Assembly (NCBI GenBank): GCA_008690995.1
Contig: VRMN01000004.1
Location: 620,001-684,000 of the forward strand
Reading direction: 5' to 3'
Length of the DNA: 64,000 bases
Origin: Porphyridium purpureum
Lineage: Eukaryota
The notes under the pieces are model-generated. The model saw nothing but the letters and a program-made list of their open reading frames with translations, was not told the origin of the DNA and made no database searches. Position numbers and translations under genes: made by a program. Below, piece after piece: positions 45,165 to 56,484 of the stretch; the first letter of the stretch is position 1; every line of letters starts with the position of its first letter.

Positions 45165-47270
45165 TTAGTCTCGCGGCGGAGCGTACGCACCGGCGCCGAA
45201 AAGTAGATTTTTCCGTGTGAAACGAACAAATTGCACGGGCGTGTTTTTGGTCCTCATTGTGCGCAGCGGCGACGAGGTTTTTGTGTTCTTCATGTGCTTT
45301 GTCGCATGTACGGTGCTTGCTGCCGTGCCAGCTGCCGACGCGGATACCATGGAACCTGTGTGTGCTTCCCAAATGCGCACAGTGCAATCAGCGCTGCCAG
45401 ACGCAAGGAGTGATCCGTCCATGGAATACGCCAGCGACCATATGCTGTCCTCGTGGCCTTTCAGGGTCTGGATCTTGCGCCCCGATGAAATATCCCATTC
45501 CTCAATCACTTGACCTTCTCCGGCCATGGCCAATTTGGACCCATCCGGAGAGGTGGCGAGGGCGCCCACCGCACCGTCCTGTAGCCCAAACAGGCGAACG
45601 GCATCACCCGTACGGACGTCCCACATGCGTGCCGACCGATCCGAGGAACCCGAGAACACATAATTGCAGTTGACGTGCCACGCCACGCAGTCGACATCGG
45701 CCAAGTGGCCCGCGAAGATGCGCAGCGGAGAGATGTGATCCGTAGACCACAGCCTCGCGCTTCTGTCGTGCCCACCCGATACAAAGTAGTAGCCAAGCGG
45801 ACTGAACGAAACACACCACACCGGATAATTGTGTCCACGATAAGCTACAAGGTCAGTCTTCAACGCATTACTCCACAAGCGAATTGAGCCGTCCTCTGAA
45901 GAGCTGAGTGAGTATCGATTATCCGGCGACACCGAAACGTCATAAACTGGACCTTGGTGTCCAATGCATGTGCTGCAGGTGCCTGCCTTGACGTCCCACA
46001 TGCGCACAGTCGAGTCCTCAAAACCCGCGACCAACATGGACGCGTCTGGGGCTGCGTCCACGCAGTGCACCCCGCAACCCGCGGTATTCGTGAATGTATA
46101 GAACAGTGCTGAAGGTAGACATGTCCGGGAAAGGGCATGACGGTTTTTGATGTCGTCCGGCGTTTCCAAACCCTGCGCGCCCAAGCGAAATTTGGGCAGA
46201 GGAACTGGTGAGCTGGAGATGGTTCCGTCCGCCTCCGTGACAGCCGGTTTTTCCTCCTCGCCCTGATCACCGTCTGGAGCGGCGGCGGCGGCCGCCGCTT
46301 CGGTTGTCGCGGCTGGGTCGTCAGGCACAATGTACTGAGTAGGTTTGAGGCGACCCCACAGCACCGTCTTGGAGGCGATCAGATCCTCTTGTTCGCTTCC
46401 GCGTACGAAGCCGCTGGGCCTGCCCGACGCCGCTGCGGTTCTGGCAGCGCCCTTGTTTGCAATTGCACTGGCGATGACTGCGCCTGGCGCGCGAGGCACC
46501 TCGAATTTCACGCGGCAGCGTTGATTAAGGATACGTAGTAAAATAGTGCGGCTCGGATCGTCCGTCAAAAAGCCAATCAGCAGCTCAAACGCAAATGGCG
46601 TGAGGTAAATTTCGTACCGCTCCTTCAGGAAGCGACTGGATACCTCATTCTCCTCCATGTGCTGGATGGATGCGACGCCGGCCAGATGCAAGAGCTCATC
46701 CAGGTTGGATGCATTGAGCGTGCCGGACATTTTGAGCTCGGCACCTGCACGTTCGAGAAAGGTCTTACCCTCTGTGACGTAGCCGCGGCGTACGAGCTCC
46801 AAGAAGCAGTGCACAAGCATCGGGTAGAGCACACTGTGAAGCTCGCCTTTGTACAATTCCAGCGAGCTGTCGACCCACTTTTGCAGAACAAAGTAAGCGT
46901 GCTCAATGACCTGCGGGTCGAGCTCGGCCGCTGCATTTGCGCTCCTCTGCGTCATGAGCAAAATCACGTTGCGCAGCTCCTCATCTGTCCCTTGCGGCTC
47001 TGCCGTCCACTTGACCGGCGCCGGCGCGCGGTGGGCTGCGTCACCAGCCGCCGCTGCGGCCAGTACGATTTCCTGCGCCCCAGCTCCATCGCCATCACTC
47101 CCACTAGCCGCCGGCAACCGGGACGCCAGCGTCTCCTGCAGCAGCGCGTACTCTGCCTTCTTATAATTTCGTGCGCGCAAGTATGCGATCAGCGCGCTTG
47201 ATCCGTCGAGACCCGACCCAAGTCCCGGACCCATGGCATCACCACCCGTACCATCATAACTCCCCGCCAT
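45165..47270 (-). CDS. TAF5: TFIID subunit TAF5 (LisH, NTD2, WD40)
   Basis: LIAYLRARNYKKAE (LisH), WVDSSLELYK.EL..VLYP..VHCFLELV (NTD2), WD40 repeats YRGHNYPVW and PLRIFAGHLADVDCV. Confidence 0.92.
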   Translation of the reverse strand: MAGSYDGTGGDAMGPGLGSGLDGSSALIAYLRARNYKKAEYALLQETLASRLPAASGSDGDGAGAQEIVLAAAAAGDAAHRAPAPVKWTAEPQGTDEELRNVILLMTQRSANAAAELDPQVIEHAYFVLQKWVDSSLELYKGELHSVLYPMLVHCFLELVRRGYVTEGKTFLERAGAELKMSGTLNASNLDELLHLAGVASIQHMEENEVSSRFLKERYEIYLTPFAFELLIGFLTDDPSRTILLRILNQRCRVKFEVPRAPGAVIASAIANKGAARTAAASGRPSGFVRGSEQEDLIASKTVLWGRLKPTQYIVPDDPAATTEAAAAAAAPDGDQGEEEKPAVTEADGTISSSPVPLPKFRLGAQGLETPDDIKNRHALSRTCLPSALFYTFTNTAGCGVHCVDAAPDASMLVAGFEDSTVRMWDVKAGTCSTCIGHQGPVYDVSVSPDNRYSLSSSEDGSIRLWSNALKTDLVAYRGHNYPVWCVSFSPLGYYFVSGGHDRSARLWSTDHISPLRIFAGHLADVDCVAWHVNCNYVFSGSSDRSARMWDVRTGDAVRLFGLQDGAVGALATSPDGSKLAMAGEGQVIEEWDISSGRKIQTLKGHEDSIWSLAYSMDGSLLASGSADCTVRIWEAHTGSMVSASAAGTAASTVHATKHMKNTKTSSPLRTMRTKNTPVQFVRFTRKNLLFGAGAYAPPRD

Positions 47271-47841
47271 CCAAACCTTGCTCGGCACAGAGGCTTCACG
47301 AACCTTCGTAGCCGCGCTCCACCGCCACGCTCGCCCGCACCCTATCTACACTCCATGCATCCACCGATCGACGCCGCCACCCACTGCGCGCTGCTCCCGG
47401 GTTCCGTCTCTGCACGCGCGCTCGGTGTTGCCTCTTCTCCCAGCAGAACCGCGAAGTACAGCGACGCTTCTCGCGACGAATGTTGACGGCTGGCACAGAT
47501 GAACGCGTTGCGTCTCACTTGGAGAGACGTGTACGGTGGAAAAGTGCGCGCCGTGTGAAGCCACGTGCGTGCGTTTACGCATGCGACAAATCATCTCGAA
47601 CGAAGATGCGTCGAACGTATCCTGAGGCGACAGCTTTCGCGGTGACGAAGCGTCACAGGCCGGCTGGACGGCTGGCGTGCAGAAACGTGCCCGCATCGTT
47701 CGGCATGACCCACAGTGAAGATGATCCGACGCAGACCTGTTGCACGTGTTGCGTGCGCAGTTTGGCGGTCAATGCGCTGGATCGGCTGCAGACTCTTGAG
47801 CACATCTGCATCGCAACTTCGACCCGAAACATGATCCCACT

Positions 47842-48119
47842 AGTAGAGGAATACGTCCTCCTCGATGGCCAACGGAGTGGTGCGGCGATCGAGCTCACGC
47901 GTACGCGCTGTTCGTGTGCGCGTGAAGGGTGTGGCAGTGCCGCAGTAACCAACAAACACAGCTTTACTGGTAGTCGACGAGCACGCTCCAAGAAAACACT
48001 CCTTACCCGAAAGAGCGGGCTAGTGAGACCGTCCACGCTCTCCGGCCGCTTACAATCGCGGCGCGCTCCTCTACCCATACTGTACAGACCAACAAGGTGT
48101 ACACCCAGTGTACACTACA
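47842..48119 (-). repeat. 3' LTR (278 bp)
   Basis: Direct repeat of 54662-54932 plus 56283-56289, differing at only 4 positions. Confidence 0.95.
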
Positions 48120-48121
48120 CA

Positions 48122-48130
48122 CTCCTTCGC
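48122..48130 (-). other. Polypurine tract (PPT) of the Copia element
   Basis: Minus strand reads GCGAAGGAG-TG immediately before the LTR start TGTAG. Confidence 0.6.
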
Positions 48131-48205
48131 CGCGATGGAAGCTACCACCCGCTCCACACAAGCCACCCGACGGCGAAGCGAGTCACACGAGACGATGCGT
48201 ACGCC

Positions 48206-49370
48206 CTACGGTTCTTGCGCTGTCGGCGCACGCCCGAGGATCATATCACGGAGGTGTGCGAACCTCTTTCCCTGCAGCGGTTTGGTCAGCAGGTCCGCGA
48301 TCATGACCTCGGTGCTACAATGTACCATCGTCGCGACTCGCCTCTTCAGCAGATCGTGCGTGAAGAAGTGTTTGATCGCGATGTGGCGCGACCTACGCGA
48401 GGTCGCCCGACCGTGTGCAAGGAGAGACATGGTCGCCTCGTTGTCCTGGTGTAGGCGTACGCCAGCTGTGCGGATGCCCTGCGCCTCGAGGAAGTTCCGC
48501 GTCCATATCGCTTGCCCGATCACATCGCTCACGCCCACCAGTTCCGCTTCGGTGGAGCTCTTTGTGTTGAGCTTCTGCTTGACACTGGTGGCGTACGCCG
48601 CGCCGCGGCCCAGGCTCACAACGCCACCCGTGTGGCTCCTCATGTTCGCATGTGTCGCGAATGAGGCGTCGACATAGCACTCTACGTGCGGCTCCGCATG
48701 GCTCGCGCAATCGGGCTCGCGCTCGTCTGCAACCCAACCCGTGCCCAGCTCCAGCCTCATGTCTCGCGTCTTGTTGAGGTACCTCAGCAGGCGGGTCAGC
48801 TTCGCGCGGTCATTCTCGCCCGGGGCCTGTACTCGCGTAGCCAGAAACGCTACCGCAGTGAGCAGGTCCGGGCGTATGCGCTTCGCGAGGTATAGTACCT
48901 TTGCGGTGGCGCTGTGGAACGCCTCCTTGTCGTGCGACGTCAGTAACTGCGACTCGTCATCCACGAACAACCCGGCTTGAGCGGGCGTGTCTGCGGTACC
49001 GCGTACGTCATTCTCTCGCAGTAAAGAGTCTACAAACCCGCCCATCCCGATGCGCACCACCCCCGGGGAGGTATAGTCAAACTCCATCCCCAGGTAGCTG
49101 TGTGTGCGCCCTCGGTGCTCCTGCAGCGACGGAAACCTTTCGCGTACGCGCGCCACCACTTCATCAATCGCTTGCTCGCTTTCTGCGATCAGCTCCACGT
49201 CGTCCACGTGCACAAGCGCTGTGACGGAAGGCTCGCCCGTACGGGAGACTTTCCGCAAGACACAAGCGTCGTAAGCATTCTGTTCGAATCCGAGCTCGCT
49301 CAACATTTCGCAGAGGTGGTCATACCAACGCTTGGACGCATCGATGCATCCATACAACGGGCGCTTCAAC
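48206..49370 (-). CDS. Copia pol, C-terminal part (RT remainder and RNase H)
   Basis: Motifs LKRPLYG, HVDD, YLGM, RPDL, YVDASF, SSTEAE, QDN, ADLLTKPL. Rejoins in frame with the upstream part once the Merlin element is removed. Confidence 0.93.
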
Positions 49371-50600
49371 GGCTGACGGAGCGCGTGGGTGCGACCTGTA
49401 CATTCTCCATGAACTGTACTCAAGGAGGTAGAGTGAAATGATAAACCGATAAACCGAATCTGACGTTATGGAGCATGAATGCATGCTGACGAAGGGGCAA
49501 GGGAGGAGGAGCATGGAGGACGCCGGTATTCCTACGCTCAAGGAAGTCTATGCACTGCTCTCCGATGAGCATGCATGCATACAGTTCCTTATGAGTATCG
49601 GTGTGCTTGCGGCAAAAGTGCGTTGTCCTGCGGTGGGTTGCTCGGCGGAGATGCGCGAGATTCAGGTAAAGTGTGCATTCAGGTGCAAGAGAAAGGCTTG
49701 CCAGCAGTTTGTATCACTTCGATCTACAAATTCGTTCTTCTCTGCCCATAAAAATCTTGCTTTTCACGATGTCTTGTTTTGTGTTTTTCTTTGGCTCCAC
49801 TGTCTTTGTGCCACGCAGATTTCAGAGTTGACTGGACTCGCGAGGAGCTCAGTGCGCAGCATTCTCGTGCATGTACGCCAGTGCATGGTCGAGTACAATG
49901 CTATGCATGAGGCTCCCATTGGTGGCCAGGATGTTATAGTCGAAATCGACGAAAGCAAGTTTGGGAAGCGCAAGTACCATCGAGGACATCGCGTTGATGG
50001 GGTATGGGTGCTTGCCGGAGTGGAACGAACTGAAGAACGCCGTCTCTTCATGACAGTGGTGCCCAACCGGACAACGCGCACTTTAATTCCCATCATACAG
50101 CAGCGTGTGCACCCGGGCTCCATTATACATACGGATTGCTGGAAGTCGTACTTCATTTTGAAGTACCATCCGACACTCAGACACTATACCGTAAACCATG
50201 AAATGCACTTCAAGGATCCGGTTACGGGAGTGCACACGAATACAGTGGAAGGAACTTGGCGGGCCGTGAAAGCAACCATGCCTGATTCTGCTTATGATGG
50301 AAATCGTGTGAACCTTTATTTGGAGGAGTTCATATGGCGGCGTATCAACCACGGACGCGTTTGGGAAGCATTCATGCGTGTGCTTAAGTGGTGGCGCACC
50401 GAAAACCGCCAATTCAAATCGGTTTGACTCAGAGGTACAGTACGTTCCGTTGCTTGCTACAAAATAATCTAATTTTGTTGGACAGTTCCATTCTACTATA
50501 AAAGAATGTGTTCTATATATAAGCGTGATTCTATCACATTTGCGCTTTTTGATAGGATTCGAGGAGGAGGTACAGGTCGCACTCCGGCGCTCCGTCAGCC
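49371..50600 (+). mobile_element. Merlin (IS1595/ISXO2-like) DNA transposon, 1230 bp
   Basis: 31-bp TIRs starting GGCTGACGGAGCGC (3 mismatches). 9-bp TSD CGCTTCAAC at 49362-49370 and 50601-50609. Confidence 0.93.
49468..50427 (+). CDS. Merlin/IS1595-family DDE transposase
   Basis: N-terminal Zn-ribbon-like Cys cluster, VEIDESKFGKRKYHRG, IHTDCWKSY, VNH, HTNTVEGTW, YLEEFIWR. Confidence 0.93.
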   Translation: MEHECMLTKGQGRRSMEDAGIPTLKEVYALLSDEHACIQFLMSIGVLAAKVRCPAVGCSAEMREIQVKCAFRCKRKACQQFVSLRSTNSFFSAHKNLAFHDVLFCVFLWLHCLCATQISELTGLARSSVRSILVHVRQCMVEYNAMHEAPIGGQDVIVEIDESKFGKRKYHRGHRVDGVWVLAGVERTEERRLFMTVVPNRTTRTLIPIIQQRVHPGSIIHTDCWKSYFILKYHPTLRHYTVNHEMHFKDPVTGVHTNTVEGTWRAVKATMPDSAYDGNRVNLYLEEFIWRRINHGRVWEAFMRVLKWWRTENRQFKSV

Positions 50601-53503
50601 CGCTTCAACCTGCAGACCAGAACACCGTTCTTGACGAACTGCTTCATGCGCTTGTCTACGGCGGCGAGCAGCCCGGTCAGGTTTCTGTTGATCCTTACGT
50701 ACGTGTGTGGGTCGCTGTCGGGGATGCTTGCGTTGAGAAATGCCCCGGGGAAATCAATCGTGGCGACTGCGGCACCGCTTCTCGCTGCCTCGGCTGCCAG
50801 TAAGAAAATAGCCTCGGTCGCCACCGTGGGGGACGAACAGTCGGAGTACTCCGATCGATCTTGCTCGTTCCCGCCGGCCACCATTCGTGCTTTGATTTTC
50901 TCCAAGGCGCCTGAAGCATCGTGCTTCTCCTTCACGAACATGAACGACGGTATGATCCCGTCTCGTTGTTTCTTCGTGAGCGTGTGCACGTGGACCGGCT
51001 CCAGCACGTCCAGACCGTGCTTGGACAGCTGCAACAGCTCAGCGACAATCGCCTTGAGTCCTTCCATACCGTATTGGCGTATCGCCTGGCGTACGCCGAT
51101 CCTCAGCGTTTTGTGTCTGCGCTTTCCCGGCATCGCAGAAGATAGCAAGTCCTCCGCCTCTCGTTTCAGGGCGACCACGACCTCCGGCGCGCGCCGTACA
51201 CGCAGGCGTTCCTTCTCGCGGCGCGATAGCCGCTCATTCTTTTCGCGCTCGACGTCCGGGAATGTCCCTTCTGCTTTCCGCTTCCGTGTCCGACGCGGAG
51301 AGCTGACGGCGCGGGCATGCTCGGCTTCGCTCGTGCGCGGTACCGCATTTCGGACGGCGTCCGCGTACGATGGCTCCGTGGTCATCTGACTCAGCAGACG
51401 CGCCTCACGTTCCTCCAGCGCTCGCAGCTTCTCTTCAATTGCTTCCACCCGCGCTTTGGCCTGTTCCATTGTCACCTCGGCGACCGAGGGGGTCAAGGCC
51501 GCTTCGCCGTCTGAAGCGTCCGGACTGGTGATTGTGGCGTCGCCGTGCGGCCGTGCGGCAGTAGCGGGTGGATCAGTCGACGCCTCTTCCTCGGGCACAT
51601 GGGTTTCCACAGATTCTGCCACGATAAGCGGCTCCGGCAGTACTGCGTCCGTGCTTGGCAGACCCTCGCCGGTCGCTTCCGCAATCGCTGGCGTCATTGC
51701 TCGCCCCGCCTCGAAGAGTGAATCCGCTGCACGTCGCATCTCTTCCATGCGCAACTGCGTGGGAGTGGACGGTGACTCATCCTTACTCAGCACGTCGGCG
51801 CCCGCCGGTGCGGGGTGATCGGTGTCGGCGTGTGTCGGAGTCTGCGCCTGTTCACGCAGTACCGCGTCTTCTGGCTGGTCCAGATACGTGTGCCCCTCCG
51901 CCGCTGGCTCGTCGACCGGCCCGCCGTTTTTCAGCGCCGCCTCGACCTCCGCCGTCTCTTTGTCTTCCTCCTGCGAGAGTTCCACCTCCGTGCGGCCGAG
52001 GTCCTGATCGCCATCGTCGATGCCTGCCACGGTTGGGAGCGCATTTACGTACGTGATCAGGTGGTCCGGTACCGGGAGCTCTGTCCACACCTGTCTGACG
52101 ATGGGCTTCAGTGTGTTCAGATTCATGAGCACCCAGCTTCCCGCAGCATTCTCGGCGGAATGCAGGGTGAGGCAGCCCAACGTTCTGGGCCTCATCGTGC
52201 TGTCCACGGACGCTGTATGTGCCTGGACATACGCCCCGAATGGAGCACGTAGGTCCGTCTTCGCGTCTACTTTACGACCAAAGTAGATGGCGTGCGCCGG
52301 TTCGCCCGCGTCGGAGGCCTCGCTCGTCACCATGTTCAGTCTCTGTCGAGAGAACTCCACGGCTCCCGGCAGCATGCATAATGGCATGGTGTACGGCAGG
52401 TCGTACGACAATGTGCGGACCCTTTCCTTTAGAAGGCGAATCGCTCGCTCAGCGGCGGGCACCACCTCGTCTGCCGCGGTTAGCTCGGGCAGGATGCCGG
52501 CCTCCATCAACTCGATCCAGAGCGACAGGACTGCGCTTTCACGGTCGAACCGAATCTCAGGTATCTGCACTCCATGCCCGCGGGCCTCGTTCAACCGCCG
52601 CTGCACCGCCGCGCGCACCGAAGGCACGTCCTTCCGCTTCAGCTCGGTGGCCAGGATGTATTGACTCGGTTTCAAGACCGACACGAGGAAAGGCACCTTC
52701 GAGATGAACATCAGGTCGGAGTGCATCACCTGGCGCGCTTTGGGACCAGTGGCGACCGCTTCAGACAGCCTCGGTGTCGCGTGTCCCGTTGTCTTTCCCT
52801 TCACACACGGCAGTGGAGTACCCCAGATTGCATTCGCACGCTCGAGGTCCGCCGACGTGACGTCACAGTTGCTTATGTCCCCGCGCTGAAGCATGCGCTT
52901 CAGCACACCAAAGGATGGGAATCCCAGCCTCGCCTGCAGAGAGCGAGCGGCGCGTGCGCGTTCAACCTCGCGTACCGTGCATCGGGCAAGGTTGCTGGCG
53001 ACCGTCGTGATTGTGCTTGAGGTCCAAGCCTTGGCAGACGATGGACCGGCCCGGCAGCTGTTCCGGTTGTCCTTATTCGTGGCTGCCTTCTTGTATGCTG
53101 GGCCCGTCGTGTGCACGAGATCTGCACGCCGTATCATCGCAGTGTACATTCCGTGTGCATCGGGCGCGAAGACCAGCCAGCGCTTGGAGTTCGGCACGCG
53201 TACGCGGAAGCGGTTCTCATCCGCGTCGAAGCGTACATCATGCCCTTCCGCGACCAGCTTGGTCATAGACAGCACGTTGCCTGCAAGGTTCTCGTTGACG
53301 TACGCCATGCCGAAGGCCGTCTCACCGCCGTGCCCGATGGCCAGCTCGCTCGCCCGCGCGTCAATTCCGGACAGCAGCAAATACTCGTCAATTTTCTTTA
53401 CCCGATGGACTAACCCCTTATCCTTCATGACGTGAACACCCGAGCAGGTGTCGAGACCCAAAGGTATCTCGTCACCGAAGCCCGTGGGCCACGTCGCACA
53501 CCG
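50601..53503 (-). CDS. Copia pol, N-terminal part (protease, integrase, start of RT)
   Basis: Protease LDTCSG; integrase HSDLMF, RFDRE, AERAIRLLKE; RT KARMVAGG, DFPGAF, CRLKR. Same frame as gag, directly after the gag stop. Confidence 0.9.
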
Positions 53504-54613
53504 TCATGCATCGGCGTTCCTTTTCAACGCGTCAAGTGCGGCCCGCAGCTGTTGCTCCGTCGCCCCGGCCAGCACCGGCCCGCGTCCGCGCGTGTCGCGC
53601 CTCGCCATGCGCGCCTGCCTCTCCTTCGCCGCGCGCATCCTATCGGCCATTCCGCTGTCCAGCGGTCGCGCGTGGCAGTCGCGAAGGAGATGATCATCCG
53701 CGCCGCAGTTGTAGCATTCGCGTACGCGTGGTGCTGCTGCGAGCTCCACATCATCTGTGTCCTCGTCTTCTGGGTGTTCGGTGTCCGTCCGCCAAGTGCG
53801 ACCCTGTACCGGTTGTTTCGCGTACGCGAACTGCGCCATGAAAGACATTGCCTGGTCGACCGTGTCGAACCGTCGGTGCTCGTTGTTGCACTTGCGTACG
53901 GCTTCGTCCCAGCGCGTACCTTCAAGCTTTAGGATAAAGTCAGCCGCGCAGCGCTCGGAAGACGGCACTGGTTCGCCCACGGCTTCAAGGGCCATCACCG
54001 CTGCCTTGAAGCGCGTCTTGAACGAAACAAGTGATTCGTCTGCTCCAACTCTCAGTTGATCGTACGACATGCGAGCATACTGCTGGTTACGCAGCGGGTC
54101 GTCGTAGCCACGGGTCAGGTGCGCCTCGATCACGCGCTCGAGAAGCTGCAGCGGATCGTCCGATTCTCGTACGAGTTGACTCCAGCCGGGCTTTACGGCC
54201 AGCGCTTCCTTAGATGCGCGGCTCAGTTGGCCCATGATGAGTCCAAACACGCGCACGCGAGTTTCCTTGTCCTTGCGTATCGCGTCCGAGCGCGCCGCAA
54301 GCGCCAGCTTGAGCTCTTCCTTGGCGACGGTGGCGCTGTACCAATCCTCCCGTCCCGCCTCCCCGAGCCCTGGGGTTGCTTGCGGGATCGTCGGCAAGGT
54401 GGGGTACACGCGTCCTTGGCGCTCTATCGCAAACGCTGTGCCGATAGCGCCGTATTCCTTCTTGCAGTAGTTGCCGAGCTCCTCGACCCAAACTACCACC
54501 GCGGCCGGCACCACACGCGTGCTGTCGTAAGTGAGCAGCGGAAGTGTCTCTACAAGACCGGCTTCGCGTGGGTGCGGCGAACGGCCTGCGCCGCTTTGTC
54601 CGACACGTGACAT
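53504..54613 (-). CDS. Copia gag with a CCHC zinc knuckle
   Basis: 369-aa ORF just inside the 5' LTR, containing CYNCGADDHLLRDC. Confidence 0.9.
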   Translation of the reverse strand: MSRVGQSGAGRSPHPREAGLVETLPLLTYDSTRVVPAAVVVWVEELGNYCKKEYGAIGTAFAIERQGRVYPTLPTIPQATPGLGEAGREDWYSATVAKEELKLALAARSDAIRKDKETRVRVFGLIMGQLSRASKEALAVKPGWSQLVRESDDPLQLLERVIEAHLTRGYDDPLRNQQYARMSYDQLRVGADESLVSFKTRFKAAVMALEAVGEPVPSSERCAADFILKLEGTRWDEAVRKCNNEHRRFDTVDQAMSFMAQFAYAKQPVQGRTWRTDTEHPEDEDTDDVELAAAPRVRECYNCGADDHLLRDCHARPLDSGMADRMRAAKERQARMARRDTRGRGPVLAGATEQQLRAALDALKRNADA

Positions 54614-54646
54614 TCTCGTTTGTCACCGGTGTCGCAGACTCTCAGA

Positions 54647-54661
54647 TTTTCTTGGAGCGTG
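54647..54661 (-). other. Primer-binding-site position, complementary to the element's own LTR (54802-54816)
   Basis: Minus strand CACGCTCCAAGAAAA abuts the LTR end. It is the exact reverse complement of TTTTCTTGGAGCGTG inside the LTR. Confidence 0.75.
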
Positions 54662-54932
54662 AGTAGAGGAATACGTCCTCCTCGATGGCCAACGGAGTGG
54701 TGCGGCGATCGAGCTCACGCGTACGCGCTGTTCGTGTGCGCGTGAAGGGTGTGGCAGTGCCGCAGTAACCAACAAACACAGCTTTACTGGTAGTCGACGA
54801 GCACGCTCCAAGAAAACACTCCTTACCCGAAAGAGCGGGCTAGTGAGACCGTCCACGCTCTCCGGCCGCTTACAATCGCGGCGCGCTCCTCTACCCATAC
54901 TGTACACAGCCACGAGGTGTACACCCAGTGTA

Positions 54933-56280
54933 AAGTGCGTCTCAAACAAATAGGACACTGCAAAATTTGTCCATTTTCATAGTAAATTATGAAAGTTTAC
55001 TATGAAGACGTGTTTTAGAGGGGGAAACAGGATGCTCAAACAAATAGGACACTTGACAAAGAGAGACTATATGGAGCTCTAGGGACTAAAAGTTCTGGAC
55101 GTTTGCGCCCTCCTTGTTCACGCACCGGTGTAGACGTGCATTCCACCCCGTCAGAAGGCTCCGAACCTCTGCGTTCGTGATCGACGCCCAGACTTCTATG
55201 ATTTCAGCCTCCAGCTCCGAGAGAGACTCATACTGCCTGTTTCCGGCGTAAATTCGGCGCGACATAATGCTCCACACGTTCTCCACCGGATTCAGGTCTG
55301 GCGAGTACGCTGGCCAATCCATTGCATGCCATCCTTCGCGCGCAAAGAAGGACTTTGTATTCCGCGCCGCATGAGCAGGGGCATTGTCCTGCATGAATGT
55401 CCATCCTTCTGGATGGGTTTCACCGAAGATGGTCGCCACTCGAGAGGACTCCAGCATGGCCACATAGTTTTCTGAAGTGATCCTTGCTGGGGTCTTCAGG
55501 AGCGCCATCTTCCCGGCGGAAGAAATTGCCATCCAAAACATCACACTTCCGCCGCCCGTATGACGGCGGACTCGATCCGGGAGCTCTCCTGTCCGGACCC
55601 ACTGACCAGGATACCCATCAGGGCCATCTAAATTGAACTTCTTTTCATCCGTAAAGATGACTTTTCTATGCTCTTCAATTTTATTCAGATTTTGCATGGC
55701 AAATGCCACGCGACGCAGCCGATTCTCACGGGAAAGAGGCTGCCTCACGATGGCACGCCGAAAGGACAGATCATCGGCCATATTGCGCCTCACTGTCTCA
55801 CGGCTTACCGGCTTCCTTTGGGACCTGCCAGTATTGACCTGCATTGTGAGAGCCTTTAGAGGGCTCCTAGGAGCTGCTCTAAGTTTATTAAAAACACGCG
55901 TTTGAGCGGGTCCTGTGAATTTACGGGCATTCTGATTGCCGACGTAGCCTGGGGTCGCGTCGGGCTGGTCCAGAAAGCGTTTTACGGCATTTCTGGACCG
56001 ATCCGCGCGTTTGGCTATATCGGACAGCTTGAGCCCCTCCGCGCGCCATCCCCAGATGGCACGCTTCTCCGCCTCGGTCAACGCACCCGCGCGCCCCATT
56101 TCCCGCCCGAAATCGCCCTCTTCTTGTCGACTGGCCGCCGCCGGGCGCGCCAAAACGCTTGTGTCCTATTTGTTTGAGTATCCTGTTTCCCCCTCCGAAA
56201 CACGTCTTCATAGTAAAATTTCATAATTTACTATGAAAATGGACAAATTTTGCAGTGTCCTATTTGTTTGAGACGCACTT
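54933..56280 (-). mobile_element. Tc1/Tc3-like DNA transposon, 1348 bp
   Basis: 120-bp TIRs (54933-55052 and 56161-56280). TA TSD at 54931-54932 and 56281-56282. Confidence 0.95.
55086..56099 (-). CDS. DD34E transposase
   Basis: N-terminal HTH; FTDEKKFNLDGPDG, MQDNAPAH, WPAYSPDLNPVENVW. 34 residues lie between the second D and the E. Confidence 0.95.
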   Translation of the reverse strand: MGRAGALTEAEKRAIWGWRAEGLKLSDIAKRADRSRNAVKRFLDQPDATPGYVGNQNARKFTGPAQTRVFNKLRAAPRSPLKALTMQVNTGRSQRKPVSRETVRRNMADDLSFRRAIVRQPLSRENRLRRVAFAMQNLNKIEEHRKVIFTDEKKFNLDGPDGYPGQWVRTGELPDRVRRHTGGGSVMFWMAISSAGKMALLKTPARITSENYVAMLESSRVATIFGETHPEGWTFMQDNAPAHAARNTKSFFAREGWHAMDWPAYSPDLNPVENVWSIMSRRIYAGNRQYESLSELEAEIIEVWASITNAEVRSLLTGWNARLHRCVNKEGANVQNF

Positions 56281-56484
56281 TACACTACACCACTCATGTG
56301 CATCACTGTACACGCCGTACACACTGTACTTAACGCTGTCACTGTACCTGTGAAATTGATTGACGGCGCGCCGTTTTCGTGAAGTGTACCTCCGTGCATG
56401 GACTTTCTATAAGAAGGCGCTGAGAGGCGGTGCGAGGAAGGTGAGACGTCTGGCAATTGGAATAGCGATAGATGGAGAGTTGTC

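What the first reader, a model, noticed from the sequence alone, without database searches (positions are those of the whole stretch)
54647..54816. Copia element with a self-priming signature instead of a tRNA primer-binding site
Seen: the 15 nt abutting the 5' LTR (minus strand CACGCTCCAAGAAAA, 54661-54647) lack the TGG start of a tRNA-3'-end PBS. They are a perfect reverse complement of TTTTCTTGGAGCGTG inside the LTR (54816-54802). The pairing places the 3' end of that segment exactly at the U5 boundary. A weaker stem (ctcctcgatggcc vs ggtagtcgacgag) continues inside the loop. Established: this is the geometry used by Tf1 of S. pombe, a Ty3/Gypsy element whose transcript 5' end folds onto the PBS and is cleaved to prime reverse transcription; Copia elements normally use whole or half tRNAs. 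Inference: this is a tRNA-independent, self-primed Copia lineage.
Basis: partly seen in the sequence, partly recalled or inferred. Interest (0 to 1): 0.88.

Follow-up and report, generated by a model that had tools for sequence, protein, structure and literature searches.

The report
Self-priming Copia element in red alga
A Copia-type jumping gene of a red microalga, and most testable distant relatives, carry right after the left repeat a site that perfectly matches a stretch of that repeat, so they likely start copying themselves with a piece of their own RNA instead of a host tRNA, as the yeast element Tf1 does.

Summary
Confirmed: the 15 nt directly after the 5' LTR of a Copia element (Porphyridium purpureum by database names) are the exact complement of LTR 54816-54802, with no TGG. 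In 32 of 45 testable metagenomic relatives, an 11-19-bp perfect complement starts exactly after the LTR-terminal CA. Among 29 non-redundant positives (RT/RH 33-79% identical) the sequences differ, each matches its own LTR, and in 25 the LTR arm starts at an initiator-like (T)CA. This supports clade-wide Tf1-like self-priming. Cleavage and the start site are not shown: RNA-seq gave no TSS, and this copy lacks the TCA motif. Self-priming Copia is not unprecedented: it is predicted for plant TAR/Houba (PMC6317226). I found no report for red-algal or diatom-type Copia in my searches. This scan noted the same design earlier on other DNA, mostly diatom. This copy is split by two DNA transposons and has TG...CT ends. 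Verdict: real; new variant of a known mechanism.

The parts
54802..54816 (-). Predicted self-primer segment in the 5' LTR (15 nt; 16 nt with a G-U pair if the RNA starts at G 54817)
   Evidence: Exact complement of the PBS; helix probability 0.96-0.98
54647..54661 (-). Primer-binding site abutting the LTR end, no TGG
54662..54932 (-). 5' LTR, main part; ends CTACT (not CA)
   Evidence: 267 of 271 nt identical to the 3' LTR; the end is confirmed by reads of other copies
56283..56289 (-). First 7 nt of the 5' LTR (TGTAGTG), split off by the Tc1/mariner insertion at a TA
54666..54680 (-). U5 hairpin (5 bp, 5-nt loop), 4 nt before the PBS
   Evidence: Pair probabilities 0.9-1.0
53504..54622 (-). 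gag ORF (first ATG 54613), CCHC zinc knuckle; ends in a single TGA in frame with pol
50601..53503 (-). pol N-terminal part: protease-like motif, integrase, start of RT
   Evidence: RVT_2 hit; 99% identical to the uninterrupted pol P0255 over 943 aa
48206..49370 (-). pol C-terminal part: RT and RNase H, with D-E-D-D residues read from the sequence
48120..48131 (-). Polypurine tract GGCGAAGGAG plus TG before the 3' LTR
   Evidence: the same R-rich GTG|TG junction is seen in relatives
47842..48119 (-). 3' LTR, 278 bp, TG...CT; second copy of the primer segment at 47996-47982
47837..47841 (-). Target-site duplication AGTGG (other copy 56294-56290)
49371..50600 (+). Merlin/IS1595-type DNA transposon inserted in RT (43-bp imperfect TIRs, 9-bp TSD CGCTTCAAC; ORF 49453-50427)
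54933..56280 (-). Tc1/mariner DNA transposon inserted at a TA near the start of the 5' LTR
   Evidence: DDE_3 and Tc3 HTH hits; long TIRs

Best explanation
This Copia element carries a primer-binding site that pairs perfectly with a segment of its own LTR, and it likely primes reverse transcription with the 5' end of its own RNA rather than a tRNA. Shown: the 15-bp complement ending exactly at the LTR boundary, its recurrence with different sequences across the clade, and, in relatives, its start at an initiator-like motif. Inferred: transcription starts at or just before 54816-54817. The first ~15 nt fold onto the PBS, closing a 140-nt loop. A cut just 3' of the paired segment (by the element's RNase H, by analogy to Tf1) frees a 3'-OH opposite the last LTR base, and RT copies U5 and the rest of R. 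Also inferred: plus-strand synthesis would copy the primer back into the PBS, so a change in the LTR segment would be written into the PBS in one cycle. That would explain perfect pairing alongside fast sequence drift. This copy is itself likely dead (RT split), but near-identical uninterrupted pol sequences exist in the species.
For: Exact 15-bp complement at offset 0. 32 of 45 testable relatives have >=11 bp starting right after CA, each beyond all 100 resamples; 29 of 42 after removing near-duplicates. 29 distinct PBS 11-mers among 30 elements; own-LTR match 11-19 bp against 3 of 870 cross pairs >=11 bp; 0 of 30 with TGG. The LTR arm starts at CA in 25 of 29 relatives (23 TCA; background 0.126; binomial P 5e-19, not corrected for kinship), which fits the diatom Inr-like TCAH+1W (PMC4686930). 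Primer length from that A peaks at 15 nt. Helix probability 0.96-0.98 here and >0.5 in 27 of 28 relatives folded. L068 keeps 14 bp through two G-U pairs (relaxed scan). The window element sits in a 32-row group (SH-aLRT 99, quick tree) holding 14 rows labelled as self-primer carriers. The Tf1 mechanism is as described in PMC7175516.
Against: No direct evidence of TSS, cleavage or a primed cDNA: 65, 247 and 74 RNA reads gave no start site in the LTR. This copy lacks the TCA motif at the arm start; a TCACT lies 27-28 nt upstream as a rival start. If the RNA started at the LTR edge, the helix falls to p about 0.44. Tf1's accessory duplexes are not enriched. 13 of 45 testable loci missed the preset rule; 5 (L001, L002, L017, L049, L058) show no convincing match even post hoc. 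Some LTR copies in the reads carry a change at 54802, the primer's last base. Host tRNAs were not available.
Confidence: 0.85

Rival explanations
1. The primer has the same sequence but acts in trans, without a fold-back cut: a short RNA from an LTR (abortive or processed transcript, or the 5' end of the second packaged genome) anneals to the PBS.
For: All sequence evidence fits equally. No pretzel to position a cut. The loop length varies from 54 to 461 nt.
Against: The cis helix is strongly favoured in folding. The known precedent (Tf1) works by cleavage of the same transcript's duplex.
Confidence: 0.08
2. The 3' copy of the segment (47996-47982) primes: the genomic RNA ends or is cut right after it, and its 3' end loops back to the PBS.
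For: The segment is present in the 3' LTR. Depth of reads with first mate on + falls from about 62 to 24 between 54900 and 54790 in X20.
Against: The arm's 5' edge coincides with an initiator-like motif in 25 of 29 relatives, which marks an RNA start. Priming from the 3' R would occupy the sequence needed for strand transfer (inference).
Confidence: 0.03
3. A host tRNA or tRNA fragment primes; the LTR match is a coincidence or a regulatory hairpin.
For: Copia elements usually use whole or half tRNAs (PMC6317226). Host tRNAs could not be screened.
Against: No TGG in 0 of 30. 29 distinct PBS 11-mers among 30 elements cannot match one tRNA, and each matches its own LTR. The chance level is far lower. 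A regulatory hairpin does not explain the exact start at the LTR end.
Confidence: 0.04

Closest known systems
Tf1/Tf2 and the Tf1/sushi group, Tcn1 (Ty3/Gypsy chromoviruses)
   Same: PBS abuts the 5' LTR and pairs with a segment at the RNA 5' end; no tRNA. In Tf1 the first 11 nt pair and RNase H cuts between nt 11 and 12 (PMC7175516, passages).
   Different: This element is Copia (RVT_2, integrase before RT) with no chromodomain hit. The primer is about 15 nt. The three-duplex 'pretzel' (PMC10085805) is not detected. Tf1 is proven experimentally; this is not.
TAR lineage of plant Ty1/Copia (Houba, Osr-1; GyDB Tork/Fourf)
   Same: Copia with predicted self-priming: 89% of 203 TAR elements, by a criterion (>=10 bp complement starting 0-5 nt after the LTR) that this element meets (PMC6317226, passages and supplement row).
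   Different: TAR was defined in green plants. This element is from a red alga, with diatom and aquatic relatives, weak RVT_2 scores (65-92 bits) and no rve or gag-pre-integrase hit, so it is likely a separate clade. No TAR sequence was available for a tree.
CoDi (Copia of diatoms; CoDi-I-like)
   Same: A self-primer-bearing relative (L054) is 63-64% identical to Fragilaria crotonensis RT proteins. The integrase N-terminal and RNase H motifs resemble CoDi-I (recalled, not from a call). Some CoDi families lack TG/CA ends (PMC2806351).
   Different: The CoDi paper's main text has no hit for 'primer binding' or 'tRNA'; its supplement could not be read. No named CoDi sequence was compared.
GalEa (including CoPorcru of Porphyridium cruentum; fungal GalEa with a conserved hairpin site)
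   Same: Copia found in red algae; fungal GalEa also lack a tRNA PBS (PMC5445492; PMC3587641).
   Different: Metazoan GalEa have PBS TGGTAGCAGAGC and an HHCC integrase finger; both are absent here. For fungal GalEa the authors found no LTR sequence complementary to the site; here the complement is perfect.

Membership tests
Ty1/Copia LTR retrotransposon | LTRs, TSD, PPT, and order gag-PR-IN-RT-RH with a Copia-type RT | tested here: met
   integrase and protease read from motifs, with no Pfam hit
Self-primed LTR element (Neumann 2019 criterion) | >=10-bp complement in the 5' LTR to the sequence starting 0-5 nt after the LTR, no tRNA PBS | tested here: met
   15 bp at offset 0; criterion
Self-primed LTR element (Tf1 mechanism) | Primer segment is the 5' end of the transcript | tested here: inconclusive
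   Initiator-like motif at the arm start in 25 of 29 relatives, absent in this copy; RNA-seq gave no TSS
Self-primed LTR element (Tf1 mechanism) | RNase H-dependent cleavage releases the primer | not testable with these tools
   RNase H acidic residues are present in the sequence; no cleavage data
Tf1/sushi group | Ty3/Gypsy order with chromodomain | tested here: not met
   Copia RT after the integrase; no Chromo hit in the window ORFs or the 7 intact polyproteins
Tf1/sushi group | Three-duplex pretzel around the PBS | tested here: not met
   Leader-loop z<-2 in 2 of 29, U5-loop 1 of 29, control 0 of 29; a crude test that could miss short helices
TAR lineage | Phylogenetic placement in TAR | not testable with these tools
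   No TAR reference was held; host and weak RVT_2 scores argue against
CoDi-I | Phylogenetic placement with named CoDi elements | tested here: inconclusive
   A clade member is 63-64% identical to diatom proteins; no named CoDi reference; motifs recalled
GalEa | PBS TGGTAGCAGAGC and HX4HX30CX2C integrase finger | tested here: not met
tRNA-primed Copia | PBS complementary to a host tRNA 3' end or half-tRNA | tested here: inconclusive
   3'-end type excluded (no TGG); half-tRNA not screened, no host tRNA set

The most novel reading that the evidence does not exclude
A large, deep Copia clade of red algae, diatoms and other aquatic eukaryotes self-primes independently of both Tf1/sushi and plant TAR. 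It uses a bare ~15-nt cap-proximal primer without the Tf1 pretzel, with primer and PBS kept matched by copying at each cycle. tRNA-free priming would then have arisen at least three times among LTR elements, or be ancestral.
Probability: 0.6. Interest if true: 0.62.

Novelty: new variant of a known kind. Interest (0 to 1): 0.5.

Why it matters
It extends tRNA-independent priming, proven only in Gypsy-type Tf1 and predicted for one plant Copia lineage, to a widespread algal Copia clade. It bears on whether self-priming is ancestral or convergent (PMC3601003 raises the ancestral idea). Such elements would escape control through tRNA supply or tRNA fragments (inference). In practice, annotation tools that require a tRNA PBS will miss or mislabel them, and the rule predicts their start sites. 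The species has near-identical uninterrupted pol copies and transcripts, so the mechanism is testable in a culturable alga.

Tried and rejected
Tf1-type pretzel: no enrichment. TSS from RNA-seq: 3 raw runs, 20-25% of each read, too shallow and mixed across LTR copies. Compensatory changes among close copies: not resolvable from the read tables. Viral-contig scan: no relatives. Host genome and tRNAs: not held; no tRNA gene in the window. Rfam on 54500-54940: no match. PDB sequence search with P0255: no match. Atlas: only RVT_2 clusters without useful taxa. Naming the clade by a tree: no named TAR or CoDi references among 360 protein hits. The tree is the quick version; rows under 300 aa were left out. 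L002's 10-bp hit lies in coding sequence and is treated as chance, although labelled it positive. An LTR ending in CA or TA: rejected by the TSD and by reads. Primary Tf1 papers were not held; Tf1 facts come from passages in PMC7175516 and PMC10085805. My first registers for the inner stem and U5 hairpin were off and were redone.

Full report
Observation. On the minus strand the 15 nt at 54661-54647 are the exact reverse complement of 54816-54802; outward the duplex extends by G-U pairs, inward it stops. The LTR pair is 54662-54932 and 47842-48112 (4 mismatches in 271 nt). The first 7 nt of the 5' LTR lie beyond a Tc1/mariner insertion at 56289-56283, preceded by AGTGG, which recurs right after the 3' LTR. 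So the LTR is 278 bp, TG...CT, and the PBS starts at offset 0. Reads and contigs from other copies diverge at 54662, confirming the end for the family. Chance: naive P 4e-7; internal positions never exceeded 12 bp against the LTR.

Element. gag with a CCHC knuckle, one in-frame TGA, then pol with a Copia RT (RVT_2) after the integrase. RT is split by a Merlin-type transposon at 49371-50600 with a 9-bp TSD. Database names give Porphyridium purpureum, with uninterrupted pol sequences 99% identical. Several other Copia families of the species are 44-46% identical in RT/RH.

Relatives. An RT/RH alignment fetched 77 metagenomic loci, the best 80 of 547 confirmed before merging. An exploratory scan showed 12-19-bp inverted repeats just before gag. 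I then fixed a rule that does not use the repeat to choose the region: 45 of 77 loci have non-coding DNA before a gag-like ORF. In 32 of 45 a perfect complement of 11-19 bp starts exactly after a CA, each beyond all 100 Markov resamples.

The 13 misses. L051 and L074 have 10 bp in the right geometry. L068 has 14 bp with two G-U pairs, L061 one terminal mismatch, and L021 9 bp plus a bulge. L055 has 14 bp outside the chosen region, L067 14 bp across the contig junction, and L040's region holds no LTR end. L001, L002, L017, L049 and L058 show nothing convincing; none shows TGG after an LTR-like end.

Non-redundant set. At 80% identity, 29 of 42 are positive, 33-79% identical to each other and 36-48% to the window element. 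PBS 11-mers are distinct in 29 of 30 elements. Cross pairs reach 11 bp in 3 of 870, likely between close families (not checked). TGG occurs in 0 of 30. The pairing therefore follows each element's own LTR, not a tRNA.

Is the arm the RNA start? In 25 of 29 relatives a CA sits at or just before the arm's 5' edge (23 TCA; background 0.126), and the length from that A peaks at 15 nt. TCAH+1W is a published diatom initiator-like motif, though common (68% of 80-nt upstream regions; PMC4686930 passages). The window copy has GTG|TTTT there. G 54817 fits a pyrimidine-purine start (general knowledge), and a TCACT at 54846-54842 is a rival. The helix dominates for starts from 54850 down to 54816 (p >0.9 at nearly all pairs) but is 0.44 for a start at the LTR edge. 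RNA reads show the element is transcribed but give no start.

Mechanism. Likely as in Tf1: fold-back, a cut 3' of the paired segment, extension into U5 (PMC7175516 passages). The cut and the enzyme are inferred. In 21 of 29 relatives the base after the primer is T and could pair with the LTR's last A, so the cut position is uncertain by one base. Tf1 needs two further duplexes (PMC10085805 passages); a duplex-energy test found no enrichment in 29 elements. Copying of the primer into the PBS during plus-strand synthesis would keep the arms matched (inference from standard LTR replication).

Placement. In a quick tree of 76 rows the window element groups with other Porphyridium families (SH-aLRT 94) inside a 32-row set (99) with 14 rows labelled positive, one of which (L002) I regard as chance. 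Positives are spread over the whole tree. One positive, L054, is 63-64% identical to Fragilaria crotonensis proteins. The label CoDi-I-like rests on this and on recalled motifs. GalEa features are absent.

Prior knowledge. Neumann 2019 (passages and one supplement table) predicts self-priming for TAR (89% of 203) and cites proposals for Houba and Osr-1; 'red alga' does not occur in its text. Searches for self-priming with copia and primer binding site, with red alga, with diatom, with Houba, and for self-primed copia, plus CoDi and Porphyridium searches, listed no paper on this clade (most seen as listings only). The library lacks most subscription journals, and the CoDi supplement could not be read, so absence is not certain. 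This scan's earlier notes report the same design in other genomes, mostly diatoms; I tested the claim independently here.

Verdict. Real and well supported by comparison, not yet shown by experiment. A new variant of a known mechanism in a likely separate Copia clade; interest 0.5.

Noticed in passing
window 54662-54663 and 47842-47843: The family's LTRs end in CT, not CA (TG...CT), in many copies, while the 29 relatives found by a CA-anchored rule end in CA. The integrase must accept a non-canonical U5 end.
   Followed up: partly
window 53504-53506 (-): gag and pol are in frame and separated by a single TGA (context GCA TGA CGG), suggesting stop-codon readthrough. Annotated pol proteins of sister copies also start after this point.
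   Followed up: no
window 54545-54644, run X20: RNA reads of a divergent subfamily (about 15 changes) carry a variant PBS with a substitution and a 1-nt length change. Its LTR arm could not be read, so compensation is untested.
   Followed up: partly
window 49371-50600 and 54933-56280: Two DNA transposons with open transposase ORFs (Merlin/IS1595-type, 9-bp TSD; Tc1/mariner with long TIRs holding internal repeats) are nested in one young Copia copy.
   Followed up: partly
window 45165-49465 (-): The Copia sits just upstream of a TAF5 gene; the public gene model P0001 fuses the Copia RT/RNase H piece to TAF5 (1121 aa), likely an annotation error.
   Followed up: no
window 54788-54767 (-): AGTAAA followed by a GU-rich run is a candidate poly(A) signal; depth of reads with first mate on + drops from about 62 to 24 near here, which would make R about 45 nt.
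   Followed up: partly
L003, L004, L018: Tandem arrays of elements sharing one LTR between neighbours; many other loci are circularly permuted single-LTR contigs (collapsed repeats or circles).
   Followed up: no
window ~52700-53000 (-): The integrase N-terminus lacks the HHCC zinc-finger pattern, and Pfam gives no rve hit even on intact copies.
   Followed up: no
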